Virus record (IMG/VR): IMGVR_UViG_3300022843_000001
Coordinates: 64,001-128,000 of that record
DNA length: 64,000 bases
DNA from: a virus
Strand: one strand, 5' to 3'
In this document: positions 2,719 through 51,838 of the stretch, piece after piece
How positions within the stretch are numbered: position 1 is the first letter of the stretch
Layout: each line of letters begins with the position of its first letter
Translations under genes and position numbers: made by a program
The notes under the pieces: model-generated
What the model saw: the letters and a program-made list of their open reading frames with translations, nothing else
Told to the model about the DNA's origin: nothing
The model's database searches: none

Positions 2719-3011
2719 AGAGAAACAACCGGCAGTTTTGAAAACATAACAAAAGCAGTATCGTTTATAGTAGGGGTTGTGGAATTATACATTTCAGCAT
2801 CCCATAGTGATTGGGGTCGATCAATCGAACCTTCTGCGATACGGGTCATGTTGAGGGTGTCTTGTTCGTATCGCAATGCTGCGCGTTCTGCGGTTATACG
2901 AGAAGGATAAACACCAACTATTGAATCTTCTGTTGTTTTAACTGTAAACATAGTTTCAAAATCTAGCATTGTGTCTTTCATTTCTTGTTTTGTCATATTA
3001 AATCGGTTCAT
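2715..3011 (-). CDS. Hypothetical early protein
   Basis: 98-aa ORF directly below the promoter at 3045-3072; overlaps the topoisomerase start. Confidence 0.6.
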   Translation of the reverse strand: MNRFNMTKQEMKDTMLDFETMFTVKTTEDSIVGVYPSRITAERAALRYEQDTLNMTRIAEGSIDRPQSLWDAEMYNSTTPTINDTAFVMFSKLPVVSL

Positions 3012-3413: not shown

Positions 3414-4024
3414 GTCAATTCTTCATTCTCGATATCTGCTTCTGAATCACCATCCCATTCGTCTTCCACCACATCTTCAACCTCTTTTTCTTTAAGCATA
3501 TTTTGTAATCTTTCGATCACTTCTTCGCTAGTCATCCAAAGATCTTTGTTGTCTAACATTGACTGAATCTCTCTTTCCGTCAAAAAACTTCTATAAATAT
3601 CATACAAAAAGTTTTCAGACCATCGCCGCTCATATATGATATTATCATACATTTCACCACCTTTACCCGAAGTGCCGCCACTGTAATTATGAAACATAAA
3701 CATAGAGTGCTCTGCAACTTCATAAGAGTCAGCACATAACATTATAATGGTAGCGGCCGACATACAAGAACCTTCAATAGAAACCATAACATATGCCTTG
3801 GTCTCTTTAAGTGATCGAGCAAATTGAATAGCAGTATATAAATTGCCTCCATCGGAATTTATATAGATCTTTATAACGTCTTGTTCTGATGCTTTTCGTA
3901 TCACATCAAACCAATTTATATATTGTTCTGGTGCTTCTATGTTACCGGACAAATAAAACTCATATAGATGTCCTATCGGAGTTTTTACAAAGGTGTCAGT
4001 TTCTATTAAATCGCTTATATTCAT
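3410..4024 (-). CDS. ClpP-like (S14) serine peptidase
   Basis: IYINSDGG, CMSAAT (catalytic Ser) and MFHNYS (His), the ClpP/crotonase pattern. Confidence 0.8.
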   Translation of the reverse strand: MNISDLIETDTFVKTPIGHLYEFYLSGNIEAPEQYINWFDVIRKASEQDVIKIYINSDGGNLYTAIQFARSLKETKAYVMVSIEGSCMSAATIIMLCADSYEVAEHSMFMFHNYSGGTSGKGGEMYDNIIYERRWSENFLYDIYRSFLTEREIQSMLDNKDLWMTSEEVIERLQNMLKEKEVEDVVEDEWDGDSEADIENEELT

Positions 4025-7873: not shown

Positions 7874-8899
7874 TCAGCCCTCGCATGCTTCACAAGAGCC
7901 ACTTGATGCTTTTACCCCCGATTCAGATCGTATATAATACAAAGATTTTATGAAAGGATCTTTGAATGCCATTTCATGTATTTTTGAAATTACTTCTTCT
8001 TTCTCGTCAGCACTAAAAAATAAGTTAATAGATTGTGCCTGATCGATATGTCTTTGACGCGCCGATGCCAATCGAATAATCGATTCTTGGTTGATTTCAA
8101 ACGCCGTCTTGAAAACTTCTTTCTGGTGATCATCAAGCCATTCAACATCCTGAACTGAACCGTTATCATCTATAATAGCATTTATAGTCTTCGGATTAAA
8201 AACACCTTTCTCTTTCATAACTGCTATGAGTACCGGATTGATTCTGTCAACTTCGCCAGCACTAGTTCTTTGCACGTATGCATTTTTGTATATAGGTTCA
8301 ATTCCTTGAGATACAGAGCCACATAAAATTGCCGAGGACAAATTAGGGGCAATTGCCATGCGGTGAGTGTTACGCAAACCGTAACCAACGCACCATTCCG
8401 GTTCACCTAGGGTTTCTGCTAACCAACGGCTAGCACGCTCTGAAGCTGTTGCCAGTTGTTTAAAAATTGAGTTGTTGATCATATGCGCTTCCATACTTTC
8501 AAAAGCAATGTTTTTCTGTTGTAAATAAGTATGAAAACCTAATGTACCTAAACCTAACGCTCTACTCTTTTCTGTGAAGCGAACTGCCTTTTCTAATCCA
8601 CGAATCTTTTTGCCTTCTTGGATAAATTCTTCGGCCACGCAGTCAAGAAAAACGGTTGCGTCAAATATAACTTCGTCTGGGTCTTTCATATTATCATATT
8701 GAGATAGGTTGATTGACGAAAGAACACAAGTAAAAGTAACATCATCAAAGCCTTCTCCTGTATCACTAGAAGTTGCATTCAATGTAATTTCAGTACAATT
8801 GTGTACTAATATATCATTTGCAAAGAAGTTATGATTATTCTCTACTGTAAGATCAAACACCGCTTCTTTATTATCTAAATATTCTATTGTTAAACTCAT
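7874..8899 (-). CDS. nrdA: Ribonucleotide reductase alpha, C-terminal half, preceded by a 34-aa IntC
   Basis: MSLTIEY...VFDLTV...HNFFANDILVHN followed by CTEI. Also LGLGTLG, AIAPN, DQAQS, KSLYY. Confidence 0.92.
   Translation of the reverse strand: MSLTIEYLDNKEAVFDLTVENNHNFFANDILVHNCTEITLNATSSDTGEGFDDVTFTCVLSSINLSQYDNMKDPDEVIFDATVFLDCVAEEFIQEGKKIRGLEKAVRFTEKSRALGLGTLGFHTYLQQKNIAFESMEAHMINNSIFKQLATASERASRWLAETLGEPEWCVGYGLRNTHRMAIAPNLSSAILCGSVSQGIEPIYKNAYVQRTSAGEVDRINPVLIAVMKEKGVFNPKTINAIIDDNGSVQDVEWLDDHQKEVFKTAFEINQESIIRLASARQRHIDQAQSINLFFSADEKEEVISKIHEMAFKDPFIKSLYYIRSESGVKASSGSCEACEG
8798..8899 (-). mobile_element. Split intein, C-fragment (IntC)
   Basis: Block F (VFDLTVENNHNFFAN) and block G (ILVHN), with Cys at +1. 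Confidence 0.92.
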
Positions 8900-9654
8900 A
8901 TTTTCTTATTCCTATGATTATTGCCGTCAAGCAAGGTTAAATCTGTTATTTTAAATGTTTCTATTAGCAACGTTTGTATATTTTCGTTCCATACCGGTTC
9001 TCTATATTTTCCTTTCAAACTCTTAGGTAGCGGTTGACCATAGACTTCGACAAAGTATCTTTTAGTCATGGCCATACTCCATCTTCCATATTTTTTAAAT
9101 ATTATTTTACAGGCCTCGAGTATATCTTCATTTGATATACCAGTAAATCTTGGGTTTTTTTCACCAGTGACAGAAGCACCAGTTTTTAATTTCCATTCAT
9201 CCGATCTTTTCATTCCTACATGAAAAAACACCCATTTACCAGATAGTACATGTGGATGATCTTTTTTAACTCGACCAATTCGAACTCCAGTAATAGAATC
9301 TTTTACAATTAAAGTTCCGGTGTGTCGTTTCGAAACTTCTGCTGCAATGATCTTGCGAGCTGCAGAATACGCTCTAGATGATAATCTTTTTCCCTTTGAC
9401 ACAACTCTACCCATATTGATCAAAGCCTGGTTTGCTTTATATCTGCCCTGCCCTGTTGCTAATTTAGCGAGCAATACATGAGCAATCCAATGTTCTTTTT
9501 GTGTCAGAAGTATCATATTAAAACTTTCATCTGTACCGCCAAATGATCTTGGTAGTATGTGATGATTTTCGTATTTAAAATCGCGATCTTTTTTAGATCG
9601 ACCTAGGTTTCGTCTGCTTTCTATTAAATTATTGTACAAGTTCAGATAGTTCAT
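8896..9654 (-). mobile_element. Free-standing HNH homing endonuclease inside fractured nrdA
   Basis: YENHHILPRSFGG...NMILLT.KEHWIAH; stop overlaps the IntC start (ATGA). Confidence 0.88.
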
Positions 9655-9658
9655 TTTT

Positions 9659-9693
9659 AATCCTGTTTAGTACTATTTATACTAAACAGGATT
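9659..9693 (-). promoter_or_regulatory. Stem-loop carrying a late promoter and sequestering the endonuclease RBS
   Basis: 14-bp perfect arms AATCCTGTTTAGTA/TACTAAACAGGATT; TATAAATA at 9674-9681 across the loop; AGGA in the 3' arm. Confidence 0.85.
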
Positions 9694-9723
9694 TCCAAAC
9701 ATAAAGATGTTAATGAATAGAGA

Positions 9724-10863
9724 TTACCCTATTACAAGTTCGTCATCTTCAAGCAATTCTTTCGCCATAACATATCCACGATTTTTTGTAAATATTTTAT
9801 GATCTGGAGTACATTTAATAGATTTTCCAGTTTCATCATCCGTGATTTTCATAATAGTAGCGTTAGGGTTTGTTTCCGCACCATCAGTAATTGTTTCCCA
9901 ATTGCCCAATTTATTCTCAACATCATACGACCAGATTTTCCAATCATCGAGATTATTGTTATAATGATTTTCAATGAAATGTTGCAAGGTACAAGATTTA
10001 ACACCAGAAACATCTCCTTTAACTGTTATAATAGTATCTCCAGTCATACATAAATTTGATGCATATACTTGCAGACCGCGATCCTTGTACATTGCTGGGC
10101 TTTGTCTGTTTACTTTATCAACAAAGAAGAAATATCCCTTACCTGTCAACATTTTAATCTTCAATGCTTTCTGATATCGGGCAACTGCATCTTCCTCACC
10201 TTTGTCTAAACGTTCGATAAAATCGTCACTTATATTCCAACCAACATTCACATCGTCAGGCATTGTTTCTACGTGCTGACACATCTCCCAAAAATCACCG
10301 CTTTCGATAGGAATATATCCTGCCCATGAACCCCGTCTAGTACTTCCTTGAGAAACGTCTCGAGACATCTGCACAAAGTCCTTGAATACAGGTACAACAC
10401 CACTTGCGGCGCCACCACCTTTGATATGCGTACCTCGTTCACGAATAGCGCCAAGATACGAACTTGTACCAAAACCGTTCTTTGAAAGGAGAGCACCTTC
10501 TTTCTGGGCTTCATAGAAATTATACACCGAATCACCAACGTAACTTCCAGAACACGATACAGGCATACCACGAGTCGTTCCCATATTTGCCATTACTGGT
10601 GTACTTGGAGCAAGAAAACCATTCCACATCAAATCGAAGAATTTAGTATTCCATTCTTCGCTCGATTCGCCCATGTGCTTCGAGGCGGTTTTTGCGATAC
10701 GTTCAAACGTCGACCGAACATCCGGTTCAGATTCCGTTTGATATTTTTCCTTAAACATTTGCCACCCAGGAGTGGTGTAGTAATCGGGAATTCTGCCAGA
10801 CGCCTGTAACTTCTTACGTTCCCTGCCCAGCTCTTTATAAATTGATACGTGTTCTTCTACCAT
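9724..10863 (-). CDS. nrdA: Ribonucleotide reductase alpha, N-terminal half, ending in a 108-aa IntN
   Basis: PSTPV, GMPVSC, SQGSTRRG, ASNL followed by CMTGDT. Start refined to MVEEH (TAATG overlap with nrdB); no ATP-cone visible. Confidence 0.92.
   Translation of the reverse strand: MVEEHVSIYKELGRERKKLQASGRIPDYYTTPGWQMFKEKYQTESEPDVRSTFERIAKTASKHMGESSEEWNTKFFDLMWNGFLAPSTPVMANMGTTRGMPVSCSGSYVGDSVYNFYEAQKEGALLSKNGFGTSSYLGAIRERGTHIKGGGAASGVVPVFKDFVQMSRDVSQGSTRRGSWAGYIPIESGDFWEMCQHVETMPDDVNVGWNISDDFIERLDKGEEDAVARYQKALKIKMLTGKGYFFFVDKVNRQSPAMYKDRGLQVYASNLCMTGDTIITVKGDVSGVKSCTLQHFIENHYNNNLDDWKIWSYDVENKLGNWETITDGAETNPNATIMKITDDETGKSIKCTPDHKIFTKNRGYVMAKELLEDDELVIG
9727..10050 (-). mobile_element. 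Split intein, N-fragment (IntN)
   Basis: Cys1 block A (CMTGDTII), block B (CTPDHKIFT), acidic end AKELLEDDELVIG then stop. Confidence 0.92.
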
Positions 10864-11864
10864 TATACTTGTCCCCATATGAAGTTAGTTTCTTTCCAGT
10901 CTCTGTTATATTCTGATCCAGTTGATATAAAGAAGTCATGAAGCTTTGATGAATTGATATTACGATAAAACCATTTCTCTATAGGATTGTATGTAGGTTT
11001 ATATAGCTTTTGATAACCAAGTTGTTCAAGACACAAATCAATTCTTGACTGTACGAACATGTCTAGCTGATGTTCTGTAATGCCACGAATGTTTCCTTTC
11101 TCAAAAATCATCTTGATAATTTCTTTTTCATGCTCGTAAGTTTTTGTAGCTACCTTAATAATATCCTTCTCTAAAGTTTCAAGTTCTTTCTTGGTTAAAT
11201 TGGCTTCTCTCATTAAGGTCTTGAACAACCAAGCATCTGCCATTGCGTGTAGATTTTCATCCTTAACTGAGAAGTTAATACCAGCAATTAGGTTTGTCAG
11301 TTTGTTTTTGCCTTCGGCTTGAAAGTGTTTTAGAAAGGCGAAGTTTGCATATAACACAGCACCTTCAACAAAGGAAAACGCGCCAAGACTTCTTAACAAA
11401 TCCATGTTGTTGTCACTTGGTGACAACAACACATCTCCAATCCACGATATACGATCACTCAATACTTTGTTTTCTTTGTAAGAGTTGTAAAATTCGTTGG
11501 TTGCAAGACCAAGAATTTCGTTTATCTTTGAATAGAAAGGTGCATGAACATTTATTTCCACATAGGCGAACATATTTGCCATTCGCTGAATGTCTGGCCG
11601 AGGAAATGATTTTGCAACACGAGCTGACCAATATTCATTGCCAACATTTAGTTCATATTCTGTGAACAGTTGTAGTACAGTTGTAACGCCGTGTAGTTCT
11701 GCTTCGTCGAGGTTGTTCTTGAGATCATGAAGATCTTTCTCCATCGATATCTCGCGTTCTGTCCATAATATATCTTGTTGTTCTTCCGAAAATGCTATTG
11801 CTTCAGGATAGTCAAACGTATATTCGGATTTTTTGGTTCTTATTCTTGGTAATTCCTCGCTCAT
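10863..11864 (-). CDS. nrdB: Ribonucleotide reductase beta subunit
   Basis: WTEREI, EINVHAPFYS, VEGAVLY..F, KDENLH di-iron motifs. Confidence 0.92.
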   Translation of the reverse strand: MSEELPRIRTKKSEYTFDYPEAIAFSEEQQDILWTEREISMEKDLHDLKNNLDEAELHGVTTVLQLFTEYELNVGNEYWSARVAKSFPRPDIQRMANMFAYVEINVHAPFYSKINEILGLATNEFYNSYKENKVLSDRISWIGDVLLSPSDNNMDLLRSLGAFSFVEGAVLYANFAFLKHFQAEGKNKLTNLIAGINFSVKDENLHAMADAWLFKTLMREANLTKKELETLEKDIIKVATKTYEHEKEIIKMIFEKGNIRGITEHQLDMFVQSRIDLCLEQLGYQKLYKPTYNPIEKWFYRNINSSKLHDFFISTGSEYNRDWKETNFIWGQV

Positions 11865-48476: not shown

Positions 48477-48538
48477 TTGACAAACTTGTGTAGTTGTGTT
48501 ATAATAACTAAGTCGTGCCGGGGCAGGTTGGTGTACAC
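48477..48538 (+). promoter_or_regulatory. Plus-strand sigma70 promoter followed by the conserved G-rich 33-mer (copy B)
   Basis: TTGACA-17-TATAAT with TGn; AACTAAGTCGTGCCGGGGCAGGTTGGTGTACAC. Confidence 0.8.
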
Positions 48539-48545
48539 TAAATAT

Positions 48546-48902
48546 CTAATGTAAGGTCAACCCTTCGGGATTGCCCTCCTGCGGTTCTTCTTCCTGCAAG
48601 GCATCCTTTAATTCCTGTCCTACGATTTTACTTAATGCATCCACGTAAAAGTTACACATTTCTGCATTAGGCTCTGCTATAACAATTCCAGTCTTCATAA
48701 TTGTCACGGTGTTGTTCTCTGCAAAGTTCATGAAGTCCTTCATATAATAAGTATACTTATCTTCTTCTGAATTGCTTTTAACTACTTCAAGACTGTCTTG
48801 CATTTCAATATAGACATCATTTTGGAATGTAACATTACCTACAATAAACTCTCCAGTGGCAAGTTTTATATACAATAATTGTACTTCATTTATAGCTCTC
48901 AT
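48546..48902 (-). CDS. Conserved hypothetical protein downstream of uvsW
   Basis: IKLATGEFIVG N-terminus; overlaps the uvsW stop. Confidence 0.6.
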   Translation of the reverse strand: MRAINEVQLLYIKLATGEFIVGNVTFQNDVYIEMQDSLEVVKSNSEEDKYTYYMKDFMNFAENNTVTIMKTGIVIAEPNAEMCNFYVDALSKIVGQELKDALQEEEPQEGNPEGLTLH

Positions 48903-49813
48903 TTTAAAGGTACCTCATAAACTTTATAATCAAATTCTTGTTGACTGTATATCTTAATTCTTTCTGCTGCATGATTTAATGCATAATTTTTATGTGATTT
49001 CCAATGCAAGTCGTCTGCAATGTCATACACGGTTGTAATTCTTCCATCATCAGATTTTCTCAAACCACGTCCTATCGATTGTAAAATCTTAATTTGGCTC
49101 TTCGACGGAGATGCAAAGACAATATTGTGTAGGTTCCTAATATTTATACCTGTAGAAAATACACCTAAACTAGCAACAATAATCGCATTCTTTTGTGTTT
49201 CAGTTAGTTTCCGTACATACTCTCTGGTATCGGCATCAGTCTTACCAGACACATAAAAGATCTTTCTTCTTTCGTGAGCATGCTTTTCTATAAGAGCATG
49301 TAGTGGTATACCATGCTTTTCCACAAACTGAAACAAGATTAAAGTATTACCATCTAGATCAAGAGCAAGATTTTTGATAAAGTTGTTACGTTTTTCGTGC
49401 CGAACAATAAAATCAATCTCGTCAGGATACTTCATCTTCTTAACTAACTTACATTCTTCATCTCTAAACTTCAACAATAGAATGTTAATATTCAGGCCAG
49501 CGAGAGTTCCATCATCAATAAGTTTCTTGGTTGTTGTCACGTAATGTGCTTTACCAAAGTGACCTTCAAGCTGCAATCTATGGCTCTTTGCAGAGCTGTC
49601 TTTGATAGTACCGGTAGTGCCAAATCTATATGCTGCTTCTGATAAGTTGGACATAATAGAGGTCAGAGACTTTGCTGTAGCGAGGTGCGCTTCATCCACT
49701 ACGACACAACCATACCTTTCAAACCAACTCTTATTGAGCTTGTATATAGACTGCCATGTTGATATTACAATTCTGGGTGTTGTAGTTTTTCTAGTTATTT
49801 TTTTTATTTTCAT
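48899..49813 (-). CDS. uvsW: UvsW helicase, C-terminal half
   Basis: ISTWQS, DEAH, GTTGT, STGINI, QSIGRGLR; basic MKIKKITRK head. Confidence 0.92.
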   Translation of the reverse strand: MKIKKITRKTTTPRIVISTWQSIYKLNKSWFERYGCVVVDEAHLATAKSLTSIMSNLSEAAYRFGTTGTIKDSSAKSHRLQLEGHFGKAHYVTTTKKLIDDGTLAGLNINILLLKFRDEECKLVKKMKYPDEIDFIVRHEKRNNFIKNLALDLDGNTLILFQFVEKHGIPLHALIEKHAHERRKIFYVSGKTDADTREYVRKLTETQKNAIIVASLGVFSTGINIRNLHNIVFASPSKSQIKILQSIGRGLRKSDDGRITTVYDIADDLHWKSHKNYALNHAAERIKIYSQQEFDYKVYEVPLK

Positions 49814-50639
49814 GATATGATCTTATATGTTTAGGGATGCAATGTGCCGCCATAGCTCTATCACAATATTCACATTTGATTTTGGGTTTTGATCGACCCT
49901 TCGCTTTAGTTGTAGTACCCTTATTGTGACCTTGTTGGATCCAATCATCTCCGGGCTTTTCGTTTGCTTGAGTACGTTCATAGGTTACAGTATTATACCA
50001 ACACTTTCTACCTTTCATATCAGGCATAGAATCAAGTTTTTTCTGAACAAAAACAGGATTTTGCATAGGATTGTTAGTATTCCACACATTCGTTTTATTT
50101 TTAGTACGAGTTTCTATAGACTTCTTATGAGTTTCCTCATCATTGAAGGGACTGTGCTCTTTCATAAACTCGCGTTGATTTTCTCTTTTCCCCGAATTCC
50201 ATTCAGCAACCATCATCTCAGATTGAGTGATGGCGTCCCTTCGCCCATCTTTGTAACTAGCTTTCATATCTTCGGACATCATGGCTGCAAGGTCTCTTTT
50301 TAGACTTTCGTATACCCTATTGGTTACACGACTTTCTGTGTTATTTGATTTCATAGACATTGCTGTATATGCCCTTAACATAGAATATCGACCTTTGTCC
50401 GTTATAAATTTAGGCAACAGCACGTGTGCTAAATAATGTTCCCTTGCTGTTAATCTTACCATATTATTTTTTGCATTACAACCACCAAGAGATTTAGGTA
50501 ATATGTGATGGTTTTCGGTGTAATTGTCTCTATCTACAGGATTAGCTAACCGGTTAGCTATTATATTACAATACCAATTATAATATTTGTTTATGTTCTT
50601 GCCCTTGTAGCCATTTATCGTCAATTTCGTGAGATTCAT
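49791..50639 (-). mobile_element. Free-standing HNH homing endonuclease splitting uvsW
   Basis: TENHHILPKSLGG...NMVRLTAREHYLAH; C-terminal CEYC...H...H; late promoter at 50676-50683 inside the upstream CDS. Confidence 0.88.
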
Positions 50640-51402
50640 TTAGTTCGTCTGCTCTTATTTTACATTTCTTATTGTTATTTATAATATCTATAAACGCATT
50701 GCCTAAAAATCTATACAATTTACCATCAATCGTCTCTATTTCTATGTATACTTTTGTGGGTGGTACCTTATCTTGCCCCGAGTATATAATATGGCAAAGA
50801 TCATCAGACATAAACCCGTCGTCAAATTCTGAATAATCCGCGAAGTCACTATTCATTTGTTTTACAAGTGAGGTTGTTGGCACTACAATTAGTATATCTT
50901 TTTCGTTGTTGTCAAGATAATAACGAAGTATAGAATATATAATAAAAGATTTGCCAGACGCAGTTGGAGATATAACCAAAGAGTTTCTATTCTCTAGGCA
51001 ATGCTCTACCGCGGCTAATTGATAGTCGTGATGCTTTATAGGTGCGCCGCGAGAAGTAAAAGTGCAGTCATTGATCCATTCCATATCATAAGAGTGTAGA
51101 GTCCCAGGCATGCCATAATAGTTATTGTGCTCTACTTCGATCTTGTAATCTCGAGTTTTGGCAAATTCTTCAACATAAGTATAGAGCCCAATAGGCAGCT
51201 GTCTATCTCTCGAGTTAAAAATGCGAATGTAGCCGTCCCATTGCTTGTTCTTATATGAGGGCATGAACTGATATCCCTCAGGTTGAAAAGCAAAGAAGTC
51301 AGTTAACTCATTGAGTATAGAAGGCTCGGCATCAACATGCAAAAACGCTTGGTTCTTCTTTTTTAAGGTTATTGTATTCCATTCTTTCATATCACATCCC
51401 AC
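50578..51402 (-). CDS. uvsW: UvsW helicase, N-terminal half with a 62-aa Hint-like tail
   Basis: WDGYIRIF, YQLAAV, SPTASGKS, VPTTSLV.QM, CHIIYSGQDK, then a foreign tail. Confidence 0.92.
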   Translation of the reverse strand: MGCDMKEWNTITLKKKNQAFLHVDAEPSILNELTDFFAFQPEGYQFMPSYKNKQWDGYIRIFNSRDRQLPIGLYTYVEEFAKTRDYKIEVEHNNYYGMPGTLHSYDMEWINDCTFTSRGAPIKHHDYQLAAVEHCLENRNSLVISPTASGKSFIIYSILRYYLDNNEKDILIVVPTTSLVKQMNSDFADYSEFDDGFMSDDLCHIIYSGQDKVPPTKVYIEIETIDGKLYRFLGNAFIDIINNNKKCKIRADELNESHEIDDKWLQGQEHKQIL

Positions 51403-51838
51403 TTGTAAATTGACGCCATTTTATAGCATTGCCGATAGTTTGGTGTCTCCATTTTATCGACTCCATTATCTCTTTCAGTACATCTACCACGTTTTTGGTG
51501 TATTCGATTCTTGCTAGTGCTGATTGTATGTGTTCATCCGCATCATAAAAATAATGCATCTCACCTTTCATGATCTTTAAACCTTGGAGTGCATCGTAAT
51601 CCCAGCCCAGCTTATCTATTGCATCTTTGGACATTTTGCCATTATACCATAGATATTTATTTTTTAGGAGTACTTGTAGTTCTGCTTCGCGCTTTTTGAG
51701 AGTAAGTCTATACATCGACCAGATCTCTATATATTTTGAATGAAGCTTAGCACCTTGGATAGATGCTGCGTCTAGATTCATCTCGTCGATGGGAGAATCG
51801 ACTTTCCACATAGCATAGATTGCTTCTAATGTTATCAT
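51392..51838 (-). CDS. uvsY: Recombination mediator
   Basis: WKVDSPID, LHSKY, KYLWYNGK; late promoter at 51873-51880. Confidence 0.9.
   Translation of the reverse strand: MITLEAIYAMWKVDSPIDEMNLDAASIQGAKLHSKYIEIWSMYRLTLKKREAELQVLLKNKYLWYNGKMSKDAIDKLGWDYDALQGLKIMKGEMHYFYDADEHIQSALARIEYTKNVVDVLKEIMESIKWRHQTIGNAIKWRQFTSGM

What the first reader, a model, noticed from the sequence alone, without database searches (positions are those of the whole stretch)
48899..51402. uvsW split in two, apparently held by a non-splicing intein-derived clasp
Seen: the helicase is broken by an HNH gene between CHIIYSGQDK and TPRIVISTWQS. Walker A (PTASGKS) is in one ORF and Walker B (DEAH) in the other. The N-half ends in a 62-aa foreign tail (50581-50766: VYIEIETIDGKLYRF...IRADELNESHEIDD, acidic). 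The C-half starts with a basic MKIKKITRK. Established: the second half of an IntN typically reads like 'eIetedGk.i..T..H...v.AdeL..gd.i', an IntC starts like 'mvkIk.i', and in Npu DnaE these acidic and basic pieces bind first (capture-and-collapse). Seen: no Cys1 block A, no TxxH and no terminal HN + C/S/T, so splicing should be impossible. Inference: a decayed split intein kept only its assembly strands, and these act as a heterodimerisation clasp that rebuilds a two-chain helicase. This is a different break from T4's C-terminal UvsW/UvsW.1. I know of no described case.
Basis: partly seen in the sequence, partly recalled or inferred. Interest (0 to 1): 0.9.

Follow-up and report, generated by a model that had tools for sequence, protein, structure and literature searches.

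The report
Half-intein clasp in split UvsW helicase
A selfish nuclease gene has cut this phage's UvsW repair-helicase gene in two and brought along two short peptides that are the splicing-dead middle part of an intein; they most likely just dock the two protein halves together, a third way, besides introns and inteins, to make such an insertion harmless.

Summary
On the minus strand, uvsW is split after SGQDK into three parts: an N-half with a 62-aa tail, an HNH homing-endonuclease gene, and a C-half that starts with the 9-aa leader MKIKKITRK. An 86%-identical phage has the unsplit gene. Phages only 40-58% identical carry the same three-part cassette at the same site, so it is a mobile element.

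Three lines of evidence show the tail is homologous to the second half of an intein N-fragment:
- hhalign gives E 2e-8 with clean controls.
- The tail-only profile retrieves genuine inteins from 1.8 billion proteins.
- A confident AF2 model matches almost only Hint-fold structures.

The leader aligns to the first IntC strand. Cys1, TxxH and the terminal Asn are absent throughout the family, so splicing is not expected. Both helicase halves are under strong purifying selection. The same catalytically empty tail also ends other split phage proteins: a second UvsW site, other SF2 helicases, PolB and DnaE.

That the tail and leader bind each other is inferred, not shown; the complex predictor was unavailable. 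The concept has published precedents: Aeh1 NrdA tails (Crona 2011) and the T4 gp39/gp60 'pendant' (2024). The demonstrated Hint ancestry appears to be new. This scan has noted the same module on other DNA before.

The parts
50767..51390 (-). uvsW N-extein: UvsW_N domain plus the first part of RecA-like domain 1 (Walker A, motif Ia), ending ...IYSGQDK
   Evidence: ORF and translation. Pfam UvsW_N 4.6e-19, ResIII/DEAD N-part. 86% identical to unsplit L001. pN 0.083 against pS 0.79. Start at ATG 51390 inferred from the 270-aa database copy P0001.
50581..50766 (-). 62-aa C-terminal tail (stop codon at 50578-50580): a non-catalytic homologue of the second half of an intein N-fragment, with four beta-strands and a short helix over DKWL
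   Evidence: Conserved family. hhalign to UvsW inteins: prob 95%, E 2.2e-8, controls <=16.5 against 45. AF2 pLDDT 84.5. Foldseek and VIA top matches are nearly all Hint fold.
50676..50683 (-). TATAAATA, a T4-type late-promoter-like motif inside the tail codons, 36 nt upstream of the HNH start
   Evidence: Motif enriched in the window, 23 against 8.3 expected. An exact copy lies upstream of the middle gene in 7 of 11 cassettes. Function inferred.
49791..50639 (-). Free-standing HNH homing endonuclease gene. It overlaps the tail ORF by 62 nt and the C-half ORF by 23 nt.
   Evidence: phrog_655 homing endonuclease 3.5e-35. Weak Pfam HNH. Homologous ORFs in L010, L012 and others. 40% identical to the HNH inside the RNR split intein of the same phage.
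49787..49813 (-). 9-aa N-terminal leader MKIKKITRK of the C-half: the counterpart of the first beta-strand of an intein C-fragment
   Evidence: Conserved M-K-I-x-K-I-E/T in 11 loci. hhalign of tail+leader extends collinearly into the first IntC strand; score rises from 39.7 to 44.9. An in-frame stop 4 codons upstream prevents any longer N-terminus.
48899..49786 (-). uvsW C-extein: the rest of RecA-like domain 1 (TWQS strand, DEAH, motif III) and RecA-like domain 2, including the stop codon
   Evidence: Translation. Pfam Helicase_C and ResIII C-part. pN 0.058 against pS 0.77 relative to L001.

Best explanation
A mobile homing-endonuclease cassette sits in the loop before the TWQS strand of RecA-like domain 1 of uvsW. 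The cassette consists of a 62-aa in-frame tail, an HNH gene with what looks like its own late promoter, and a 9-aa leader with its own start codon.

The tail and leader are the middle of a Hint (intein) domain: the second half of IntN plus the first IntC strand. Block A, the TxxH of block B, and blocks F/G are missing, so no peptide bond can be made or broken.

After translation of the two chains, the tail and leader most likely pair into a small half-Hint lobe. The expected contact is a beta-hairpin across the old split site, helped by an acidic patch on the tail and a basic leader. This would bring the two halves of the ATPase core sheet together and give a non-covalent two-chain helicase.

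Shown here: the split, its mobility, the Hint homology, the absence of catalytic residues, and selection on both halves. Inferred: tail-leader binding and its role in assembly.
For: - Empty site in the 86%-identical L001, and the same cassette in phages 40-58% identical.
- DNA homology to the empty site stops and resumes exactly at the cassette ends, with about 26 nt of altered target sequence.
- Tail family: 126 representatives at E<=1e-3 in 1.8 billion proteins, including genuine inteins such as P0149 at 5.9e-8.
- hhalign of tails against UvsW inteins: prob 95%, E 2.2e-8. Reversed and shuffled controls score <=16.5 against 45.
- Adding the leader extends the alignment into the first IntC strand.
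- AF2 tail model pLDDT 84.5, built from an alignment without true inteins.
- The tail persists with different cargo: a D12 methyltransferase in L020 and a non-HNH ORF in L023.
- The tail occurs at a second UvsW site and in PolB, DnaE and other helicases.
- A fused in-frame form, P0219, folds with the leader-like segment as a strand.
- pN/pS is about 0.1 or less for both exteins.
- Published analogues: Aeh1 NrdA tails are essential (PMC3045599); the T4 gp39/gp60 extensions form a pendant proposed as an assembly chaperone (PMC11461880).
Against: - No direct test of binding was possible (complex prediction unavailable).
- In Aeh1 NrdA the tails were not needed for heterodimer formation.
- Single-sequence and small-profile searches of the tail against Pfam and PDB sequences found no intein.
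- Part of the tail's conservation could come from overlap with the HNH start and an embedded promoter.
- Charge covariation between tail and leader is not significant (rho -0.52, p 0.10, n=11).
- The time since the split in this lineage is unknown, so low pN/pS does not prove the split form is functional.
Confidence: 0.62

Rival explanations
1. The tail and leader are needed for the split helicase, but not as the heterodimerisation clasp. They might act in folding or solubility of the fragments, in positioning the ATPase site, or in a higher-order or partner interaction, as found for the Aeh1 NrdA tails.
For: In Aeh1 NrdA the tail-less halves still formed the heterodimer but lost dimerisation, NrdB binding and activity. 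The two halves of one RecA domain share a large native interface that may suffice for binding. The invariant Trp and the DKWL helix have no counterpart in inteins.
Against: The retained pieces are exactly those that flank the natural intein split site and are collinear with IntN-end and IntC-start. In P0219 they sit as one compact insert. In T4 topo II the two extensions form one pendant domain.
Confidence: 0.17
2. The tail and leader do nothing for the helicase. They are kept because they serve the selfish cassette: they carry its promoter, ribosome-binding and overlap signals, and its immunity to re-cleavage. Alternatively they are a slowly decaying relic.
For: TATAAATA lies inside the tail codons, and an exact copy lies upstream of the middle gene in 7 of 11 cassettes. 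The tail end overlaps the conserved HNH N-terminus. The sequence around the site is recoded.
Against: Conservation is at the protein level, with a hydrophobic beta pattern and an invariant Trp, across tails only about 20-45% identical. The DEI.DKWL motif is kept where there is no overlap with the middle gene (L012, L020, L022, L023). The motif is also kept where the cargo is a methyltransferase. AF2 gives a confident fold.
Confidence: 0.12
3. The two chains are still ligated by an unorthodox protein-splicing reaction, perhaps with a third component.
For: Hint ancestry. The first extein residue after the leader is Thr here and Thr, Ser or Lys elsewhere. Genuine split inteins sit in the same gene family and the same genome.
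Against: Tail plus leader is about 70 residues, roughly half of a minimal Hint domain. There is no conserved nucleophile at the N-junction, no TxxH, no block F/G and no terminal Asn in any member. Pfam Intein_splicing does not match.
Confidence: 0.03
4. The interruption is removed at the RNA level (group I intron) or skipped by the ribosome (a gene-60-like bypass), giving a single-chain UvsW.
For: T4-like phages carry endonuclease-bearing group I introns, and the MobA cassette has a bypass element.
Against: No Rfam family matches at E<=10 over 48500-51800. The HNH ORF leaves about 128 nt on the 5' side and nothing on the 3' side for an intron core. The tail is a conserved folded protein. The C-half has its own conserved start and leader in every relative.
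Confidence: 0.02

Closest known systems
Aeromonas phage Aeh1 nrdA-a / mobE / nrdA-b (Friedrich 2007; Crona et al. 2011, PMC3045599)
   Same: An HNH Mob-type endonuclease inserted inside an essential replication gene of a T4-like phage. It adds a foreign C-terminal tail to the upstream piece and an N-terminal tail to the downstream piece. There is no RNA or protein splicing, and the tails are essential for activity. The authors speculated on a degenerate-intein origin.
   Different: Those tails had no database matches and no demonstrated fold. Their charges are the other way round (basic C-tail, acidic N-tail). They were not needed for heterodimer formation. Here the tail is a 45-62-aa folded unit with demonstrable Hint homology, and it belongs to a large portable family.
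T4 gene 39 / mobA / gene 60 cassette (Manning & Atkins 2022, bioRxiv 10.1101/2022.08.31.505936; cryo-EM of T4 topo II, PMC11461880, PDB 8yo3)
   Same: A conserved CTE (about 44 aa) and NTE carried by the mobile element. The endonuclease can be swapped or lost, and secondary fusions occur. The two extensions form one roughly 70-aa pendant outside the host domain, proposed as an assembly chaperone. The gp39 CTE aligns to my tail profile (E 1.3e-4, 36 columns), and gp60 begins MKFVKID.
   Different: Different host gene. It has a translational bypass element that is absent here. Neither paper claims intein or Hint ancestry. The homology to the UvsW tail is only tentative: 54% probability, and 8yo3 was not among Foldseek's matches.
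'Fractured genes': split inteins flanking a free-standing endonuclease (Dassa et al. 2009, PMC2677866)
   Same: The same layout: N-piece+IntN / endonuclease / IntC+C-piece, in phage DNA-metabolism genes. A canonical example lies in this same window (RNR, 7874-10878) with a homologous HNH. Genuine split inteins also occur at two other UvsW sites.
   Different: Those inteins are complete and catalytic: Cys1, TxxH and HN+Cys. Here only the second half of IntN and the first IntC strand remain, so the product stays in two chains.
Npu DnaE split intein 'capture and collapse' assembly (Shah et al. 2013; recalled from memory, not read here)
   Same: The pieces retained here correspond to the regions said to associate first, namely the second half of IntN and the start of IntC. 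VIA aligns the tail to Npu IntN residues 49-99.
   Different: In Npu the association is followed by folding of the rest of the domain and by splicing. Here there is no 'rest'.

Membership tests
Intein / split intein (protein-splicing Hint domain) | Hint-fold homology | tested here: met
   Met for about half a domain only. hhalign E 2.2e-8 with controls. The tail profile retrieves true inteins. Foldseek and VIA matches are almost only Hint fold.
Intein / split intein (protein-splicing Hint domain) | Block A with N-terminal Cys/Ser nucleophile at the extein junction | tested here: not met
   Residues after SGxxK are variable (V, N, I, D, S, R...), and the first roughly 50 intein positions have no counterpart.
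Intein / split intein (protein-splicing Hint domain) | Block B TxxH | tested here: not met
   The aligned position reads LGNAF here and EGNxx, SDKDQ and similar in relatives. No member has both the Thr and the His.
Intein / split intein (protein-splicing Hint domain) | Blocks F/G with terminal (H)N followed by a Cys/Ser/Thr extein residue | tested here: not met
   The leader is 7-11 aa and ends before any block F/G. An in-frame stop 4 codons upstream of the ATG excludes a longer IntC.
Intein / split intein (protein-splicing Hint domain) | Protein splicing activity | not testable with these tools
   Needs protein work.
Fractured gene (Dassa 2009) | Host gene in two adjacent same-strand ORFs with a free-standing endonuclease gene between them | tested here: met
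Fractured gene (Dassa 2009) | Complete, catalytically competent split intein on the two pieces | tested here: not met
   See the intein rows above. Contrast with the RNR locus in the same window, where Pfam Intein_splicing matches both pieces.
Endonuclease cassette with rescuing CTE/NTE tails (Aeh1 nrdA-mobE; T4 39-mobA-60) | Mob-like HNH gene inserted within an ORF, adding in-frame foreign extensions to both new termini | tested here: met
Endonuclease cassette with rescuing CTE/NTE tails (Aeh1 nrdA-mobE; T4 39-mobA-60) | Extensions conserved among insertions and retained when the endonuclease is replaced or lost | tested here: met
Endonuclease cassette with rescuing CTE/NTE tails (Aeh1 nrdA-mobE; T4 39-mobA-60) | Extensions required for activity of the split enzyme | not testable with these tools
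   Only indirect evidence: selection on both halves and conservation of the tail.
Endonuclease cassette with rescuing CTE/NTE tails (Aeh1 nrdA-mobE; T4 39-mobA-60) | Sequence or structure homology of the tail to the T4 gp39 CTE | tested here: inconclusive
   hhalign E 1.3e-4, prob 54%, 36 columns. 8yo3 is not among the Foldseek candidates.
UvsW (SF2 helicase of T4-like phages) | UvsW_N domain, SF2 motifs I-VI, synteny next to uvsY | tested here: met
   Pfam. uvsY lies directly upstream here (ORF 51392-51838) and is annotated as PF11056 directly upstream of uvsW in the related loci. The unsplit homologue matches T4 UvsW 2OCA at 1.3e-96.
Group I intron with endonuclease ORF | Catalytic RNA core detectable by covariance model, with room for it outside the ORF | tested here: not met
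   No Rfam match at E<=10. About 128 nt on the 5' side and 0 nt on the 3' side lie outside the HNH ORF. A very divergent core cannot be formally excluded.

The most novel reading that the evidence does not exclude
The tail/leader pair is one member of a general, portable 'half-Hint clasp' that homing-endonuclease cassettes carry into the middle of essential phage genes (UvsW at two sites, other SF2 helicases, PolB, DnaE, and possibly RNA ligase and radical-SAM enzymes). It would be a third general way, besides self-splicing introns and inteins, to neutralise an insertion. The textbook T4 gp39/gp60 'pendant', and perhaps the Aeh1 NrdA tails, would be the same dead half-intein. The module would also be a natural, small, non-covalent heterodimerisation tag.
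Probability: 0.5. Interest if true: 0.85.

Novelty: new variant of a known kind. Interest (0 to 1): 0.72.

Why it matters
Homing endonucleases are thought to enter coding sequence safely only inside introns or inteins. Two bench-studied exceptions (Aeh1 NrdA and T4 topoisomerase II) showed that mobile-element-borne tails can rescue a split enzyme, but where the tails came from and what they look like was unknown.

Here the tail can be traced by sequence and by fold to the part of a split intein that flanks the natural split site, with every catalytic block removed. It also recurs in many genes and lineages. That turns Crona et al.'s speculation into a testable statement. It suggests how split inteins can be simplified into pure assembly devices, or how inteins were built from such lobes. 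It gives an explanation for why so many phage replication genes are found 'in pieces'. It also offers a family of small natural heterodimerising peptide pairs for protein engineering.

Tried and rejected
- The tail alone against Pfam gave only chance-level hits.
- Tail profiles of 3 and 12 sequences against PDB sequences found no inteins.
- BLASTP of the tail against P0041 gave E 0.039, and a 3-sequence hhalign gave only 16% probability. Deeper alignments were needed.
- Rfam with lax thresholds found nothing.
- The sigma-70 promoter and terminator scan was no different from shuffles.
- megablast of the locus against the phage collection found no match.
- Alignments A7 and A9 for folding P0219 were misaligned at the insert and were discarded. 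A10 was used although the C-half leaders are scattered in it, so the P0219 model is only weak support, and strand partners could not be read from the output.
- A search for other fused forms found only P0219's own cluster, from one 4-kb contig.
- The ESM Atlas was unavailable twice.
- pdb_via did not bring up the T4 topo II chain.
- Charge covariation between tail patch and leader is not significant.
- dS is saturated, so only pN/pS could be given.
Full report
**1. What is there**

The window is bases 64001-128000 of a complete 198,785-bp phage record with terminal repeats. It is a T4-like phage, with gp23, gp19-like, uvsY and gp55-like neighbours. On the minus strand, directly after uvsY, one search shows three ORFs:
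- An N-half at 50578-51402. It probably starts at the ATG at 51390, as in the 270-aa database copy.
- A 282-aa ORF at 49791-50639.
- A C-half at 48899-49813.

Pfam places UvsW_N and profile positions 3-95 of ResIII in the first ORF, and positions 96-163 of ResIII plus Helicase_C in the third. Walker A is in the first and DEAH in the third. The middle ORF is a homing endonuclease (phrog_655, E 3.5e-35; weak Pfam HNH). The tail ORF and the HNH ORF overlap by 62 nt, and the HNH ORF and the C-half overlap by 23 nt.

**2. It is a mobile cassette, and the empty site exists**

The closest relative in IMG/VR (L001, 86% identical) has one unbroken 514-aa uvsW that reads SGQDK-NTKK-RITITTWQS. L002-L009 are also unbroken. 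DNA similarity between the window and L001 stops at the Lys codon of SGQDK and resumes at the TWQ codons, with about 26 nt of recoded target between.

So the insert is the 62-aa tail, the HNH gene and the 9-aa leader MKIKKITRK. The same three-part layout occurs at the same site in phages whose helicase is only 40-58% identical (L010-L013, L015-L019, L021-L024). Roughly 30 of the 120 nearest database clusters carry a tail at this site, and at least 64 read through unbroken.

The unbroken homologue matches T4 UvsW (2OCA) at E 1.3e-96. The break falls in the loop just before the VVVGTWQ strand, inside the central sheet of RecA-like domain 1. This is a different break from T4's UvsW/UvsW.1.

**3. 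The tail is a conserved, folded protein module**

Tails 20-45% identical to the window's share three things: a beta pattern, a K.A.D.T..DEI.D.W(L/I) end, and an invariant Trp.

Part of that end overlaps the conserved N-terminus of the HNH ORF in another frame. However, the motif is equally conserved in L012, L020, L022 and L023, where there is no overlap.

The cargo between tail and leader varies. It is HNH in most loci, a D12 methyltransferase in L020/L025, and an ORF without PHROG matches in L023.

AF2, given 20 tail-only sequences and no true inteins, predicts four strands (7-11, 17-21, 25-30, 33-38) and a helix over DKWL, with mean pLDDT 84.5.

**4. The tail is homologous to the second half of an intein N-fragment**

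Genuine inteins occur in this helicase family at other sites: after GDE in Walker B (P0041, P0061; split), and after TGTLDGxQ (P0005, P0033 split; L020 contiguous). Three independent lines tie the tail to them.

(i) Profile-profile comparison.
- 24 tails against 5 UvsW inteins gives probability 95.3%, E 2.2e-8 and score 45.0.
- It aligns tail positions 6-46 with intein columns 52-90, that is, from the strand before block B to the GD.I end of IntN.
- Reversed profiles score 8.4-8.8. Forty column-shuffled profiles have median 9.2 and maximum 16.5.

(ii) Exhaustive database search.
- The 12-sequence tail-only profile, searched against 1.84 billion representatives, finds 126 proteins at E<=1e-3.
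- Among them are true inteins with Cys1 and TxxH in UvsW, NrdA and other hosts, for example P0149 at 5.9e-8, and P0192, P0234, P0182, P0183 and P0190.

(iii) Structure comparison.
- Foldseek's first twelve rows are all Hint-fold proteins, as are about 20 of the rows listed. Hint-fold matches have rmsd 1.2-2.0 A over 41-45 residues and probability up to 0.97, although no E-value reaches significance.

Single-sequence and shallow-profile searches failed. That explains why Pfam's Intein_splicing model does not flag these proteins.

**5. The leader corresponds to the first IntC strand**

An in-frame stop four codons upstream fixes the C-half's N-terminus. Eleven loci share M-K-I-x-K-I-E/T followed by a few residues and the native Pro-x-strand.

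For a local comparison only, each locus's leader was appended to its own tail. The hhalign match to complete inteins then extends collinearly into the first IntC strand: 62 columns, score 44.9, E 5.4e-8, against 39.7 and 3.8e-7 for the tails alone. This is a modest gain, because the leader is so short.

**6. Splicing is not expected**

Nothing corresponds to block A. The block B position lacks both Thr and His in every member. There is no block F/G and no terminal Asn. Tail plus leader total about 70 residues, half of a minimal Hint domain.

The contrast is visible in the same window. At 7874-10878 a ribonucleotide reductase is split by a homologous HNH gene (40% identity, E 2e-21). There the N-piece ends in a full IntN with Cys1 and TPDH, and the C-piece starts with a full IntC ending HN|C. 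Pfam Intein_splicing matches both pieces. The uvsW cassette looks like that arrangement with the catalytic parts removed.

RNA-level repair is unlikely. There is no Rfam match at E<=10, and no room for an intron core outside the HNH ORF.

**7. The module is portable**

The same catalytically empty tail ends several other split proteins:
- UvsW pieces broken at a second site in RecA-like domain 2 (L020/L025, P0127, P0177, P0202 and others)
- Other SF2 helicases (P0166, P0175)
- A PolB exonuclease-domain fragment (P0179)
- A Pol III alpha fragment (P0230)
- By motif only, an RNA-ligase-like protein (P0193) and radical-SAM-like proteins (P0210, P0191)

L020/L025 encodes UvsW in three pieces, with two such tails and, in between, a canonical contiguous mini-intein.

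P0219 is a single-chain UvsW with tail, linker and a leader-like strand fused in frame at site 1. AF2 gives the insert pLDDT 78-93 and a strand at the leader-like VVLDI. However, this form was found in only one 4-kb contig, and the input alignment was imperfect.

**8. Selection**

Against the unbroken L001, pN is 0.083 (N-extein) and 0.058 (C-extein), while pS is saturated at 0.77-0.79. All helicase motifs are intact. The time since insertion is unknown. The maintenance of intact halves in many deeply diverged split lineages nevertheless argues that the two-chain form works.

**9. Mechanism proposed**

- Shown: the items in sections 1-8.
- Inferred: after separate translation, the tail's last segment and the leader pair across what was the intein split site and complete a small half-Hint lobe. 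This would tether the two halves of the RecA1 sheet so that the ATPase core can fold.
- The tail's patch before the Trp is acidic (-1 to -5) and most leaders are basic (+1 to +5). The covariation is not significant (rho -0.52, p 0.10, n=11).
- The complex predictor was not available.

The main rival is that the pieces are needed for activity but not for heterodimerisation, as in Aeh1 NrdA.

**10. What is known**

- Crona et al. 2011 showed that mobE-derived tails on Aeh1 NrdA-a/b are essential. They found no database matches and speculated on a degenerate intein.
- Manning & Atkins 2022 described conserved CTE/NTE extensions of the MobA cassette in T4-type topoisomerase genes. They reported endonuclease replacement and secondary fusion, and suggested that such tails may be a general strategy.
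- The 2024 cryo-EM study of T4 topo II shows the gp39 and gp60 extensions forming a roughly 70-aa pendant outside TOPRIM, proposed as an assembly chaperone. It does not mention inteins.
- The gp39 extension aligns to my tail profile (E 1.3e-4, probability 54%), and gp60 starts MKFVKID. The solved chains (8yo3 and others) did not appear among Foldseek's matches, so this link is tentative.
- No paper in the held library describes the UvsW tails or a Hint origin for such tails.
- Earlier notes of this scan report the same idea on other genomes. They were used as leads only.

**11. Verdict**

The feature is real. Its origin as a Hint-derived, non-catalytic module is well supported. Its function as an assembly clasp is plausible but unproven. 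It is a new variant of a known kind.

Noticed in passing
window 7874-10878 (-): A canonical 'fractured gene' in the same phage. The ribonucleotide reductase large subunit is split into an N-piece with a complete IntN (9724-10878), an HNH endonuclease gene (8896-9654) and an IntC+C-piece (7874-8899). Pfam Intein_splicing matches both pieces. The HNH is 40% identical to the one in uvsW.
   Followed up: yes
window 50676-50683 (-) and whole window: The T4 late-promoter motif TATAAATA is enriched (23 against 8.3 expected). One copy lies inside the tail codons, 36 nt before the HNH start. An exact copy lies upstream of the middle gene in 7 of 11 related cassettes, so the endonuclease seems to carry its own late promoter within the tail-coding sequence.
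   Followed up: partly
L020 880-3965 / L025 3088-6517: UvsW in three pieces. The first is an N-half+tail, followed by a D12 methyltransferase gene in place of the endonuclease. The middle piece has a leader, a canonical contiguous mini-intein and a second tail. A 93-aa last piece follows.
   Followed up: partly
P0219 (628 aa; one 4,077-nt Logan contig): A single-chain UvsW with tail, linker and leader-like strand fused in frame at site 1, plus a second non-catalytic insertion at site 2. This may be a 'hit and run' fusion like that described for topoisomerase by Manning & Atkins.
   Followed up: partly
P0184 (603 aa): A UvsW N-half that carries the site-1 tail and also a full-size LAGLIDADG-type intein inside Walker A (SPTG|C...THN|SGKS).
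   Followed up: no
window 50578-50639 (-): Dual-coding overlap. The tail's conserved EIDDKWL is read in another frame as the conserved KLTINGY start of the HNH protein. The same overlap occurs in L010, L013, L015, L018, L019, L021 and L024.
   Followed up: partly
P0050, P0056, P0060, P0088, P0092, P0094: A tail subfamily at the same UvsW site. It ends right after the (D/E)-(D/E)-hydrophobic end, like a normal IntN, and lacks the DKWL helix and the Trp.
   Followed up: no
P0238 (293 aa): A protein with tandem repeats of a tail-plus-leader-like unit and no Pfam family above threshold. It may show that this half-Hint lobe can exist as an autonomous repeat.
   Followed up: no
L023 3850-4599; L028 4518-5321; L027 4669-4965: The genes between the halves differ. 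L023 has a 249-aa ORF with no PHROG hit. L028 has a 267-aa endonuclease-like ORF (phrog_15427) inside a genuine split intein. L027 has only a 98-aa ORF inside another genuine split intein.
   Followed up: partly
L031 (T4) 3781-3990 (-) and 2853-2990 (-): The C-terminal extension of T4 gp39 aligns to the UvsW tail profile (E 1.3e-4), and gp60 begins MKFVKID, which resembles the leader.
   Followed up: partly
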